A stretch of DNA of 64,000 nucleotides, taken from the NCBI RefSeq assembly GCF_056712565.1, contig NZ_CM160072.1. The stretch is one strand, 5' to 3'. The stretch's first letter is position 1; every line of letters begins with the position of its first letter. Below are positions 45,301 to 48,300 of the stretch, piece by piece. The position numbers were made by a program.

Positions 45301-48300
45301 TAACCTGGTCTTTATTGCCATCCTCGCCGAAAAACTACCGCCGAAGCAGCGCGACCGCGCACGGGTTACCGGGCTGCTGCTGGCGATGTTAATGCGCCTG
45401 TTACTGCTGGCGTCAATCTCCTGGCTGGTCACCCTGACTCAACCGCTGTTCAGCTTCCGCTCGTTTACCTTTAGCGCCCGCGATTTAATCATGCTGTTTG
45501 GTGGTTTCTTCCTGCTGTTCAAAGCCACGATGGAGCTGAACGAACGGCTGGAGGGGAAAGACAGCAATAACCCCACACAACGCAAAGGTGCGAAGTTCTG
45601 GGGGGTGGTGACACAAATTGTGGTACTGGACGCCATCTTCTCACTCGACTCGGTGATTACCGCCGTCGGGATGGTCGACCATTTACTGGTCATGATGGCC
45701 GCCGTCGTTATCGCTATCAGCCTGATGTTGATGGCCAGCAAGCCATTAACGCAATTTGTTAACAGTCACCCGACGATCGTTATTCTCTGCTTAAGCTTCC
45801 TGTTGATGATTGGCTTTAGCCTGGTGGCAGAAGGTTTCGGCTTCGTCATTCCGAAAGGCTACCTGTACGCTGCTATTGGTTTCTCGGTGATGATCGAGGC
45901 GCTCAATCAGTTGGCTATCTTTAACCGGCGACGTTTTCTTTCCGCTAACCAGACGCTGCGCCAGCGGACTACCGAAGCGGTAATGCGCCTGCTTAGCGGG
46001 CAAAAAGAAGATGCGGAACTGGACGCCGAAACCGCGTCTATGCTGGTGGATCATGGTAACCAGCAAATCTTTAATCCGCAGGAACGGCGGATGATTGAGC
46101 GGGTACTTAATCTTAACCAGCGCACCGTCAGCAGCATTATGACGTCGCGCCACGATATTGAGCATATCGATCTCAACGCACCGGAAGAAGAAATCCGCCA
46201 GTTGCTGGAGCGAAATCAGCATACGCGGCTGGTGGTTACCGACGGTGATGACGCAGAAGATTTGCTCGGTGTTGTTCACGTTATCGACCTGCTACAACAG
46301 TCTCTGCGCGGCGAACCGCTCAACCTGCGGGTGTTGATTCGCCAGCCGCTGGTGTTCCCGGAAACCTTGCCGTTGTTACCTGCCCTGGAGCAGTTCCGTA
46401 ATGCCCGCACGCACTTTGCTTTTGTAGTGGATGAGTTTGGCTCGGTGGAAGGAATTGTGACATTAAGTGACGTCACTGAAACCATTGCCGGTAACTTACC
46501 GAACGAAGTGGAAGAGATCGACGCCCGCCATGATATTCAGAAAAATGCGGACGGTTCCTGGACGGCGAATGGTCATATGCCGCTGGAGGATCTGGTGCAA
46601 TATGTGCCGCTGCCGCTGGATGAAAAACGTGAATATCACACCATTGCCGGGCTATTGATGGAATATTTGCAGCGTATTCCAAAACCTGGCGAAGAAGTTC
46701 AGGTGGGGGATTATTTGCTTAAAACGTTGCAGGTGGAAAGCCATCGCGTGCAGAAGGTGCAAATTATTCCGCTACGTAAGGATGGCGAGATGGAGTACGA
46801 AGTGTGATAAAACATCAAATGCGCAGGTTCAAACTGCGCATTTGATTTATACAAAATTTAGTATAATCTAAGGATGGAGTAATGAGAAAAAAGCTGGCTT
46901 TTCTTGATACCAGTCTTGACGATTTACGCGCATTTCCAGAATCGTCTCGACAGGAAATTGGCTATCAACTCGACAGGATCCAACAAGGGTTAAACCCATA
47001 CGACTGGAAACCTTTTTCAACTATCGGCCCTGGTGTGCGAGAGATTCGTACTCGCGATGCTGATGGGATCTATCGCGTCATGTATATCGCAAAATTTGAA
47101 GAAGCGGTTTACGTATTGCATTGTTTTCAAAAGAAAACACAGACTACCAGTCAATCGGATATTGATTTAGACAAACGACGCTATAAAGAACTTGTTCAGG
47201 AGCGGAAAAATGAAAATTGAAACCTTTGATAGTGTGTGGGATGCGGTGAGTGACACCCCTGAACAAGCGGAAAATATGCGGATCCGTGCCGAACTTGTAA
47301 CGATCATTAATAACTGGATTGAACAACAAGGGTTTAGCCAGGCTCAGGCAGCGTCTGCTTTAGGGGTCACTCAACCTCGCATATCTGAACTTGCCAGAGG
47401 TAAGATCCAGATCTTTAGTATCGATAAATTGATCACCATGATGGCTCATGCAGGATTGCATATTCAACGTATTGAAATTCAATATCCACATGCTGCTTAG
47501 TGCTATAAATACAGATGGCGACAAATTGACGCCGCCATCTGCATAACTTGTCTTACATCTTCTCCAGCAACTTCTTCACATCTTTGCCATTGCGGGAATC
47601 TTTATTCCGCTCGGCCCAGTCATTCAGGCGACGTTTCGCTTCGTCCTGTAGATGTTTGCGCAGTAACTGATCCACTTGCAGGCTGTAATTGAGTTGCTGC
47701 CAGTTGCCATAAACCCGCAGCGGTACTGGCGTTTCTTTGAGGAAATCAATCAGTTTGCTTTCTCCGTTCCAGCCACCAATCACACGAATGTCAAACTGGG
47801 TGTCGCAGGTTTGATCTGCCAGATTCAACATGCCTTCCCCTGTCAGCGCCAGCACTGGCGATTGACCTTGCATGTCGTTTAACGTCACGACGCCATCCTT
47901 CAACGTCAAATCGGTGGTAAAGCGGTCAAGACGCGTCACGTTATCAAAGTTTTCAGCGGCCTTCACATCACCACCATTACGTTCTACCGCTTGCTGAATC
48001 ATCTGCTGGAAGTTCATCCCTTCCATGCGTGTGTCGGTCATTTCGACATGTGCCTGTCCTTGCCAGTTGTGGCGGAATGCGTCGGCATCTATGTCAGCAC
48101 CGGAGAAATCACCAGCCAGTGACATCTTTCCGGTCAACGAAATCGGATAGTTAAACGCCTTCAGAATGGTACCAATCTCAACGTTTTCCAGCCGTGGCTG
48201 GAAGTTTATCCGCGGATTTATTGATGTCGCGTCCAGCGTGCCCGGCAGCGAAACCTGTCCACCGTTAAGCTTGCCCTGCAGTTGAGTAATTTCCAGCAAA

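What the first reader, a model, noticed from the sequence alone, without database searches (positions are those of the whole stretch)
46811..47542. Compact HigB/Gp49-like toxin plus XRE antitoxin module wedged between yegH and asmA
Two small + strand genes (112 aa RelE/ParE-superfamily Gp49-like toxin; about 96 aa HTH-XRE antitoxin) overlap by 11 nt and have their own -10/SD and hairpins on both flanks. They sit between conserved genes yegH and asmA, which as far as I recall are adjacent in K-12. The module looks more AT-rich than its flanks and has toxin-first order as in higBA, which suggests a horizontally acquired addiction or phage-defence module. This is the most clearly accessory element outside the O-antigen cluster.
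Basis: partly seen in the sequence, partly recalled or inferred. Interest (0 to 1): 0.6.

Follow-up and report, generated by a model that had tools for sequence, protein, structure and literature searches.

The report
Accessory Gp49-type toxin-antitoxin gene pair
Two small overlapping genes between yegH and asmA form an ordinary toxin-antitoxin pair of a well-known family, already labelled as such in public E. coli genomes, present in about one strain in six and absent from K-12.

Summary
Two + strand genes, 46882..47220 (112 aa) and 47210..47500 (96 aa), overlap by 11 nt between yegH and asmA. The region is AT-richer than its flanks and has a hairpin on each side.

The first protein is a full-length Gp49/PF05973 toxin of the RelE/ParE superfamily (E 3e-28). 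Its model is closest to ribosome-bound M. tuberculosis HigB1, and six of eight proposed catalytic residues are kept. The second protein is an HTH_37/XRE antitoxin (E 5e-22).

All 80 related loci examined, from several phyla, keep the same toxin-then-antitoxin pair. Exact ATAC-N8-GTAT lies upstream of the toxin in 52 of 81 loci. In the window this palindrome overlaps the -10, so it is probably the antitoxin's operator.

RefSeq already annotates both genes. DNA of the module occurs in 910 of 5426 complete E. coli genomes, always at this locus. K-12 has unrelated repeat DNA there. The nearest relatives outside E. coli sit in plasmid-like contexts in Salmonella. Several E. coli lineages have independently lost the toxin, mostly keeping the antitoxin.

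No evidence supports phage defence. This is an ordinary, known kind of module that nobody appears to have tested experimentally at this locus. Interest is low.

The parts
46814..46846 (+). Hairpin directly after the yegH stop codon (13-bp stem, 7-nt loop). Probably the yegH terminator. It abuts the toxin operator and occupies the place where a -35 would be.
   Evidence: -20.6 kcal/mol, z -7.3. It is absent from the Salmonella homologues, so it belongs to the E. coli locus and not to the transferable module.
46847..46866 (.). Palindrome TTATAC-N8-GTATAA overlapping the -10. Proposed operator for the HTH antitoxin (autoregulation).
   Evidence: The block is 20/20 identical in the Salmonella homologues although silent sites are saturated. 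Exact ATAC-N8-GTAT lies within 90 nt upstream of the toxin gene (typically about 22-37 nt before the start) in 52 of 81 related loci, and many of the rest show near-variants.
46862..46867 (+). -10 hexamer TATAAT of the toxin-antitoxin operon. No good -35.
   Evidence: Sequence. The scan found no full sigma-70 site on the + strand.
46869..46874 (+). Shine-Dalgarno-like TAAGGA, 7 nt before the toxin ATG.
   Evidence: Sequence.
46882..47220 (+). Toxin gene, 112 aa. Gp49/Tad-type member of the RelE/ParE superfamily (HigB-like in the loose sense).
   Evidence: PF05973 E 3.3e-28; RefSeq WP_001227699.1; model pLDDT 91.8; best PDB match M. tuberculosis HigB1, TM 0.67; catalytic residues.
47198..47202 (+). 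AGGAG ribosome-binding site for the antitoxin, inside the 3' end of the toxin gene.
   Evidence: Sequence. The block CAGGAGCGGAAAAATGAAAA is conserved in the Salmonella homologues.
47210..47500 (+). Antitoxin gene, 96 aa, XRE-type helix-turn-helix (HTH_37). It overlaps the toxin gene by 11 nt.
   Evidence: PF13744 E 4.9e-22; WP_000687871.1; PDB 2a6c E 3e-14; a homologue lies directly downstream of the toxin in 80 of 80 loci.
47512..47541 (-). Hairpin between the antitoxin stop and the asmA stop. More stable on the - strand and followed there by UAUUUAU. Probably the asmA terminator, possibly bidirectional.
   Evidence: - strand -24.8 kcal/mol, z -6.1; + strand -15.5, z -3.5.

Best explanation
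This is a chromosomal type II toxin-antitoxin operon of the Gp49/Tad (HigB-like) plus HTH_37 kind.

Proposed mechanism:
- The 112-aa toxin has the RelE fold with a long C-terminal helix. It most likely binds the ribosomal A site and cuts mRNA during translation, as shown for its structural relative M. tuberculosis HigB1.
- The 96-aa helix-turn-helix antitoxin, translated from an overlapping reading frame, most likely binds and neutralises the toxin.
- The antitoxin, alone or in complex, most likely represses the operon by binding the palindrome TTATAC-N8-GTATAA that overlaps the -10.

Origin and status: the module probably derives from a plasmid addiction cassette and has been inherited together with its yegH-asmA flanks in part of the E. 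coli population. It is dispensable and is decaying in several lineages.

Shown here: family membership, fold, conserved catalytic residues, conserved gene pairing, the conserved palindrome, population distribution and the pattern of decay.

Inferred: toxicity, the RNA target, neutralisation, operator binding, and any benefit to the host.
For: Family: PF05973 covers 1-90 of 90 model positions, E 3.3e-28. HTH_37 E 4.9e-22. RefSeq names the toxin a 'type II toxin-antitoxin system RelE/ParE family toxin'.

Fold: the AF2 model has pLDDT 91.8 and a C-terminal helix at residues 91-111. The best PDB matches are ribosome-bound HigB1 7nbu (TM 0.67), then S. pneumoniae HigB, V. cholerae HigB2, RelE and YafQ.

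Active site: profile alignment to HigB1 pairs E54/E66, R56/R68, R65/R77, F82/F93, K84/K95 and Q87/Q98. E54, R56, R65, F82 and K84 are invariant in 34 homologues. The role of these HigB1 residues, and its ribosome-dependent RNase activity, come from PMC9098466.

Pairing: 80 of 80 related loci have an antitoxin homologue directly downstream on the same strand.

Selection: against the Salmonella copies pN is 0.12-0.18 while pS is 0.74-0.90.

Operator: the palindrome is 20/20 identical in those same copies, and exact ATAC-N8-GTAT occurs in 52 of 81 loci.

Literature: Gp49-HTH_37 is a recognised toxin-first type II pair (PMC7157771; PMC11980606; PMC5906591).

Decay pattern in E. coli: the toxin has been hit independently by a 5' deletion, a 23-nt deletion and a nonsense codon. 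The two deletion lineages keep an intact antitoxin. The only broken antitoxin seen lies behind an already dead toxin.
Against: No experiment on this locus was found.

The toxin allele in the window carries two derived substitutions, I69 and D97. D97 replaces an alanine kept in at least 90% of homologues and in HigB1 (A108), so this particular allele may be weakened.

Two of the eight proposed HigB1 catalytic positions differ (N73 to D61, K99 to T88).

Two M. tuberculosis proteins named in PMC11980606 among the gp49 (PF05973) toxins, HigB2 and HigB3, showed no toxicity (PMC9098466). Membership therefore does not guarantee activity.

The promoter lacks a -35.
Confidence: 0.8

Rival explanations
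1. The module in this window is an inactive or attenuated relic. The pair is recognisable, but the toxin no longer poisons the cell and the genes persist only through linkage to their flanks.
For: The window allele has two derived non-synonymous changes (I69, D97) and no synonymous change relative to the O157:H7 allele. D97 sits at a position that is alanine in at least 90% of the family. Many E. coli lineages carry dead toxins. About 83% of complete genomes have no module DNA at all. M. tuberculosis HigB2 and HigB3, listed among the gp49 toxins, showed no toxicity.
Against: Both reading frames are intact. Six of eight HigB1 catalytic-site equivalents are kept, five of them invariant in the 34-sequence alignment. 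The operator, -10 and both ribosome-binding sites are intact. The antitoxin is kept intact in the two deletion lineages whose toxin is dead, as expected if the toxin was recently active.
Confidence: 0.3
2. The pair works mainly as an anti-phage abortive-infection system.
For: Some type II toxin-antitoxin systems defend against phages (general knowledge). The family occurs in prophages: N15 gp49 at 32% identity and M. abscessus prophages at 57%. The antitoxin has a weak hit to a candidate defence component, PDC-M64C (E 7e-5).
Against: The toxin matches no PADLOC defence model convincingly (best E 0.003 to a different system). No defence genes lie next to it; the neighbours are yegH, asmA and the colanic acid genes. 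No report was found for this locus.
Confidence: 0.1
3. The chromosomal copy acts as an anti-addiction module. Its antitoxin would neutralise, and its operator would share regulation with, related plasmid-borne Gp49 toxins, allowing the cell to lose such plasmids.
For: The nearest relatives (75-80% identity) lie next to IncFII repA or tra genes and share an identical 20-nt operator. Lineages with a deleted toxin keep an intact antitoxin.
Against: Entirely inferential. Antitoxin identity to the plasmid-context copies is only moderate (antitoxin pN 0.13-0.18), and cross-neutralisation between homologous pairs is often absent. Keeping the antitoxin is also what simple toxin-first decay predicts.
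Confidence: 0.1
4. The toxin is a ParE-like gyrase poison and not an mRNA nuclease.
For: ParE2 structures appear among the fold matches. RefSeq uses the umbrella name RelE/ParE.
Against: ParE2 matches are weaker (TM 0.44-0.46) than HigB1 (0.67). There is no PF05016 hit. The Glu/Arg/Arg/Lys residues of RNase-type relatives are conserved. PMC11980606 lists the gp49 family as ribosome-dependent mRNA degradation.
Confidence: 0.04

Closest known systems
M. tuberculosis HigB1 (Rv1955, the TAC toxin), PDB 7nbu/7awk
   Same: Best structural match (TM 0.67). The RelE fold has the long C-terminal helix described for closely related Gp49-like toxins. E66, R68, R77, F93, K95 and Q98 have equivalents here. 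Toxin-first order.
   Different: Only about 20% identity. HigB1 belongs to a three-part system with a SecB-like chaperone (PMC9098466), and no chaperone gene is present here. N73 and K99 are not conserved. The antitoxin families differ.
Tad-Ata modules (Paracoccus pAMI2, phage N15 gp49/gp48, SXT) and Gp49-HTH_37 pairs of Tn3-family transposons
   Same: Same Pfam pair (PF05973 toxin plus HTH antitoxin) and the same toxin-then-antitoxin order (PMC7157771; PMC5906591). N15 gp49 aligns at 32% identity.
   Different: Those are carried on plasmids, prophages or transposons and stabilise them. This copy is chromosomal, between housekeeping genes, with no mobile-element genes nearby.
A. baumannii HigBA (pAB120) and S. 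pneumoniae HigBA (PDB 6af3)
   Same: Gp49-domain toxin with an XRE-type antitoxin. S. pneumoniae HigB is the only PDB sequence match, and it shares the C-terminal motif R..LH.F.K.TQKT.
   Different: Low identity (E 0.095 by sequence). The structural match to 6af4 is poor (TM 0.47, rmsd about 9 A).
E. coli K-12 HigBA (YgjN/YgjM) and Proteus/Rts1 HigBA
   Same: Reverse gene order and, by inference, a RelE-superfamily ribosome-dependent RNase paired with an HTH antitoxin.
   Different: Different Pfam families (PF09907 and PF05015 according to PMC11980606), and neither is matched here. The HigA equivalog TIGR02607 scores 16 bits against a cut-off of 47.7.

Membership tests
Gp49/Tad-type toxin (Pfam PF05973, RelE/ParE superfamily) | Significant full-length match to the family HMM | tested here: met
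   E 3.3e-28, residues 13-102 on model positions 1-90 of 90. All 120 listed homologues (of 6707 found) carry PF05973.
Gp49/Tad-type toxin (Pfam PF05973, RelE/ParE superfamily) | RelE-type fold (antiparallel sheet flanked by helices) with a long C-terminal helix | tested here: met
   AF2 pLDDT 91.8; four strands (4-7, 52-58, 64-71, 75-84), two N-terminal helices (11-16, 20-34) and a C-terminal helix 91-111. Foldseek top hits are HigB1, HigB, HigB2, RelE and YafQ. The long helix is described for closely related Gp49-like toxins in PMC9098466.
Gp49/Tad-type toxin (Pfam PF05973, RelE/ParE superfamily) | Catalytic-pocket residues equivalent to HigB1 E66, R68, N73, R77, F93, K95, Q98, K99 | tested here: met
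   Six of eight are conserved (E54, R56, R65, F82, K84, Q87); D61 and T88 differ. E54, R56, R65, F82 and K84 are invariant in 34 homologues.
Gp49/Tad-type toxin (Pfam PF05973, RelE/ParE superfamily) | Toxin gene first, followed directly by an HTH antitoxin gene | tested here: met
   11-nt overlap in the window. Same arrangement in 80 of 80 related loci.
Gp49/Tad-type toxin (Pfam PF05973, RelE/ParE superfamily) | Growth inhibition by the toxin, neutralised by the cognate antitoxin; ribosome-dependent mRNA cleavage | not testable with these tools
   Needs expression and biochemical assays. No published test of this locus was found.
HTH_37 / XRE-type antitoxin | Match to PF13744 and XRE helix-turn-helix models | tested here: met
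   HTH_37 E 4.9e-22; HTH_3 E 5.4e-7; HTH_31 E 4.3e-5. PDB 2a6c E 3.1e-14.
Type II toxin-antitoxin operon (general) | Autoregulated promoter with an operator for the antitoxin | tested here: inconclusive
   A conserved palindrome overlaps the -10, which is strong comparative support. Binding and repression were not tested.
Canonical HigB/HigA (PF05015 or PF09907 toxin; NCBIfam TIGR02607 antitoxin) | Match to the family models above their cut-offs | tested here: not met
   No PF05015 or PF09907 hit. TIGR02607 scores 16.3 bits against a cut-off of 47.7. TIGR02683 toxin model scores 23.3 bits against a cut-off of 62.85.
ParE gyrase-poison toxins (PF05016) | Match to the ParE model | tested here: not met
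   No PF05016 hit. ParE2 structures match less well (TM 0.44-0.46) than HigB1.
Known anti-phage defence systems (PADLOC-DB 2.0) | Both proteins match components of one defence system | tested here: not met
   Toxin best hit NsnC, E 0.0031. Antitoxin best hit PDC-M64C, E 6.9e-5. The two belong to different systems and both are weak.
Mobile-element insertion (IS, transposon or integrative island) | Terminal repeats, target-site duplication or mobility genes at the boundaries | tested here: not met
   Alleles differ across the entire spacer from the yegH stop to the asmA stop, with no shared junction repeats. The two flanking hairpins are unrelated to each other. No mobility genes lie nearby.

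The most novel reading that the evidence does not exclude
The yegH-asmA spacer is a recombination hot spot where an old, plasmid-derived Gp49-HTH_37 module is being displaced by a small multi-copy repeat element. The surviving chromosomal antitoxin and its operator (identical to that of the plasmid-context relatives) would then give immunity against addiction by related IncF-type plasmids. Separately, the palindrome TATAC-N8-GTATA would be a family-wide operator code shared across bacterial phyla.
Probability: 0.1. Interest if true: 0.45.

Novelty: already known. Interest (0 to 1): 0.17.

Why it matters
It matters little beyond correct annotation. The pair belongs to a catalogued toxin-antitoxin family, and RefSeq already labels it in hundreds of E. 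coli genomes, including the type strain and O157:H7.

Three modest points may be useful:
- The locus is a clear strain-variable marker next to the colanic acid genes, with at least six structural alleles.
- The natural series of toxin-dead, antitoxin-intact alleles is indirect evidence that the toxin is, or recently was, active.
- The palindrome conserved across phyla gives a ready, testable operator for this subfamily.

None of this touches a long-standing open question.

Tried and rejected
- Literature: searches by protein accession, guessed O157 locus tags, yegH/asmA plus toxin-antitoxin, and Gp49/HigB/O157 found nothing on this locus.
- RNA families: Rfam found nothing inside the module. 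The only confident hit near it is the expected JUMPstart upstream of wza.
- Phage defence: PADLOC gave no credible system.
- Mobile-element insertion: rejected, because no duplications, terminal repeats or mobility genes are present and the alleles differ over the whole spacer.
- Plasmid-borne copies in E. coli: the three near-identical 'plasmid' hits either carry the chromosomal yegH-asmA context (two checked) or are a very large record that was not checked. They do not show mobility.
- Outgroup test for ancestry: the genome-contig scan returned nothing closer than Pantoea at 69%. It did not return E. coli itself, so the absence of other Escherichia species is uninformative.
- PDB sequence search with the toxin alone, or with a profile, reached only S. 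pneumoniae HigB weakly. A fold search was needed to find HigB1.
- Full sigma-70 promoter: none found on the + strand.
- Complex model: I did not attempt a toxin-antitoxin complex model, because the tool returns no interface information.
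Full report
**1. What is in the sequence**

Between yegH (45224..46807, +) and asmA (47553..49406, -) lie two + strand reading frames. One is 46882..47220 (112 aa). The other ends at 47500, and its supported start is the ATG at 47210 (96 aa), giving an 11-nt overlap.

Upstream of the toxin gene are these features, in order:
- a 13-bp-stem hairpin right after the yegH stop (46814..46846; -20.6 kcal/mol, z -7.3);
- a palindrome TTATAC-N8-GTATAA (46847..46866);
- a perfect TATAAT (46862..46867);
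- TAAGGA, 7 nt before the ATG.

No usable -35 exists, because the hairpin occupies that position; the scan found no + strand promoter. AGGAG lies 7 nt before the antitoxin ATG. A second hairpin (47512..47541) sits between the two converging stop codons. It is more stable on the - strand (-24.8 kcal/mol, z -6.1), so it is probably the asmA terminator. GC is 0.41-0.44 across the module against roughly 0.50-0.55 in the flanking genes.

**2. What the proteins are**

The 112-aa protein matches Pfam Gp49 (PF05973) over the whole model, E 3.3e-28. It also matches an unnamed phage protein family, phrog_2523, at 7e-35.

An AlphaFold model built on 34 homologues is confident (pLDDT 91.8). It has four strands, two N-terminal helices and a long C-terminal helix at 91-111. 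Against the PDB, the best matches are M. tuberculosis HigB1 bound to the ribosome with its mRNA (7nbu, TM 0.67). S. pneumoniae HigB, V. cholerae HigB2, RelE, YafQ and, less well, ParE2 follow.

A profile alignment to HigB1 pairs E54, R56, R65, F82, K84 and Q87 with E66, R68, R77, F93, K95 and Q98. The other two proposed pocket residues differ: N73 corresponds to D61 and K99 to T88. The HigB1 residues and its ribosome-dependent RNase activity are described in PMC9098466. E54, R56, R65, F82 and K84 are invariant among the 34 homologues.

The 96-aa protein matches HTH_37 (E 4.9e-22) and HTH_3. It also matches the structural-genomics HTH protein 2a6c (E 3e-14).

Canonical HigB and HigA models are not matched. 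No PF05015 or PF09907 hit was found. TIGR02607 scores 16 bits against a cut-off of 47.7, and TIGR02683 scores 23 bits against 62.85. 'HigBA' is therefore correct only in the loose sense. The precise label is a Gp49/Tad-type toxin with an HTH_37 antitoxin. Published surveys list this as a toxin-first type II pair with a ribosome-dependent mRNase toxin (PMC7157771; PMC11980606; PMC5906591).

**3. Evidence that the two genes work as a unit**

- The toxin has 6707 homologues at E <= 1e-5.
- In the 80 best loci from a one-genome-per-species collection, an antitoxin homologue lies directly downstream on the same strand in all 80. These loci span alpha-, beta- and gammaproteobacteria, Acidobacteria and one Mycobacterium sp.
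- Compared with the nearest non-E. coli copies (Salmonella, 75-80% protein identity), silent sites are saturated (pS 0.74-0.90) while pN is 0.12-0.18. Both genes have therefore been under purifying selection.
- DNA similarity to those copies begins exactly at the palindrome and ends at the antitoxin C-terminus. The 20-nt palindrome/-10 block is 20/20 identical.
- Exact ATAC-N8-GTAT lies within 90 nt upstream of the toxin gene in 52 of 81 loci, typically about 22-37 nt before the start, and many of the rest show near-variants.
- The chance expectation for such an 8-base pattern in 90 nt is about 0.001 per locus (my arithmetic, ignoring base composition).

I read this palindrome as the antitoxin's operator. 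Binding itself is inferred.

**4. Distribution and history in E. coli**

The 732-nt region matches in 910 of 5426 complete genomes, and 792 of them cover at least 80% of it. There is one copy per genome, at this locus. It is 100% identical in the type strain ATCC 11775 and 98.6% identical in O157:H7. RefSeq annotates the genes as a 'type II toxin-antitoxin system RelE/ParE family toxin' (WP_001227699.1) and a 'helix-turn-helix domain-containing protein' (WP_000687871.1).

The two E. coli 'plasmid' records that I inspected carry the same chromosomal neighbours and do not indicate mobility.

Genomes without the module have other spacers of 67, 273 (K-12), 292 or 451 nt. These are built from a REP element and a multi-copy repeat. 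The alleles differ from the yegH stop codon to the asmA stop codon, with no duplications or terminal repeats. This is allelic replacement of the whole spacer, not a recognisable insertion.

Across O157:H7 and the window strain, the module is no more diverged (1.4%) than the region including its flanks (2.0% over 1532 nt). This fits co-inheritance with the flanks.

The closest relatives outside E. coli lie beside IncFII repA, or beside tra and exclusion genes. This supports a plasmid addiction-module origin.

**5. Decay series**

Several independent lesions hit the toxin:
- replacement of its 5' third by the repeat element, with the antitoxin identical to the window's (L007);
- a 23-nt deletion at 46946, with the antitoxin intact;
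- an in-frame deletion variant and a frameshift variant (P0015, P0051);
- a Q83 stop codon. In that lineage the antitoxin also has a 1-nt deletion, the operator has a point change, and the region differs from the window at 36 sites.

One genome keeps only the last ~50 nt of the antitoxin gene and has also lost the 3' end of yegH (L002). The antitoxin was found broken only where the toxin was already dead or gone. This order of loss is what an active toxin would impose. It is indirect evidence, not proof.

**6. A caveat about this allele**

Every other E. coli allele I compared has V69 and A97, while the window has I69 and D97. Position 97 is alanine in at least 90% of homologues and aligns with A108 of HigB1. 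The window's toxin may therefore be weakened. I cannot tell from sequence alone.

**7. Rival readings**

- An inactive relic is possible (about 0.3) for the reasons in section 6, and because M. tuberculosis HigB2 and HigB3, listed among the gp49 toxins, showed no toxicity.
- Phage defence has no support: PADLOC gave no credible hit and there are no defence neighbours.
- An anti-addiction role is compatible with the identical operator and the retained antitoxins, but it is speculative.
- ParE-like gyrase poisoning is unlikely.

**8. Verdict**

The object is an ordinary, already annotated member of a known toxin-antitoxin family, and I found no experimental test of it at this locus. Interest is low.

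Noticed in passing
L004:698-1148 (also L003:698-970, L006, L007:697-1087): Genomes without the module carry a small unannotated repeat in the yegH-asmA spacer. It occurs at a median of 3 places per E. coli genome, up to 7. Part of it (L004:799-942) resembles the TwoAYGGAY RNA motif, but below Rfam's threshold (31.5 bits against 43).
   Followed up: partly
L007:697-1090 and L002:2740-3060: Hybrid alleles exist. In one, the repeat element is joined to a 5'-truncated toxin gene. In the other, it is joined to the last ~50 nt of the antitoxin gene with loss of the yegH 3' end (yegH is annotated as a pseudogene). This suggests the repeat displaced a pre-existing toxin-antitoxin module at least twice.
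   Followed up: partly
window 47086 and 47171: The window's toxin allele has I69 and D97. Six other E. coli alleles and the wider family have V69 and A97. Relative to O157:H7 the toxin shows two non-synonymous and no synonymous changes.
   Followed up: partly
L097:1501-1981: One widespread lineage (the 82-aa product is indexed in 451 collection blocks) has a stop at toxin codon 83, a 1-nt deletion in the antitoxin and an operator point change. It differs from the window at 36 sites in the region, consistent with relaxed constraint.
   Followed up: partly
L092:4001-4625 and L092:5913-6504: A Salmonella contig carries two different Gp49-HTH pairs about 1.3 kb apart, beside TraX/TraW-like and exclusion genes and a TacA/acetyltransferase pair. 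This is a cluster of addiction modules on a conjugative element.
   Followed up: no
phage records MW314858.1 and relatives (H116-H127): Toxins of Mycobacterium abscessus prophages are 57% identical to this E. coli toxin over 94% of its length. That is unusually high conservation across phyla for a 110-aa protein.
   Followed up: no
window 44744-44782 (- strand): A JUMPstart RNA element (57 bits, E 9e-12) lies in the AT-rich region upstream of wza, as expected for the colanic acid operon. RefSeq also annotates a 49-aa hypothetical ORF, corresponding to window 44874..45023, in this region.
   Followed up: no
NZ_CP026085.1 (H33): A 4.83-Mb record labelled 'DH5alpha' carries the toxin-antitoxin allele at 98.5% identity. 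A 4.58-Mb DH5a record matches the repeat query only over its K-12-type part, and K-12-type genomes have the spacer without the module. The first record is probably mislabelled.
   Followed up: no
NZ_CP114132.1 (438 kb) and NZ_CP083887.1 (43 kb): Records typed as E. coli plasmids contain the chromosomal wza-yegH-asmA-dcd-udk segment. These are probably mis-assigned or mis-assembled replicons.
   Followed up: no
window 30258-30294 and 54396-54432: Two REP-like elements elsewhere in the window match the REP part of the K-12 yegH-asmA spacer at 92% over 38 nt.
   Followed up: no
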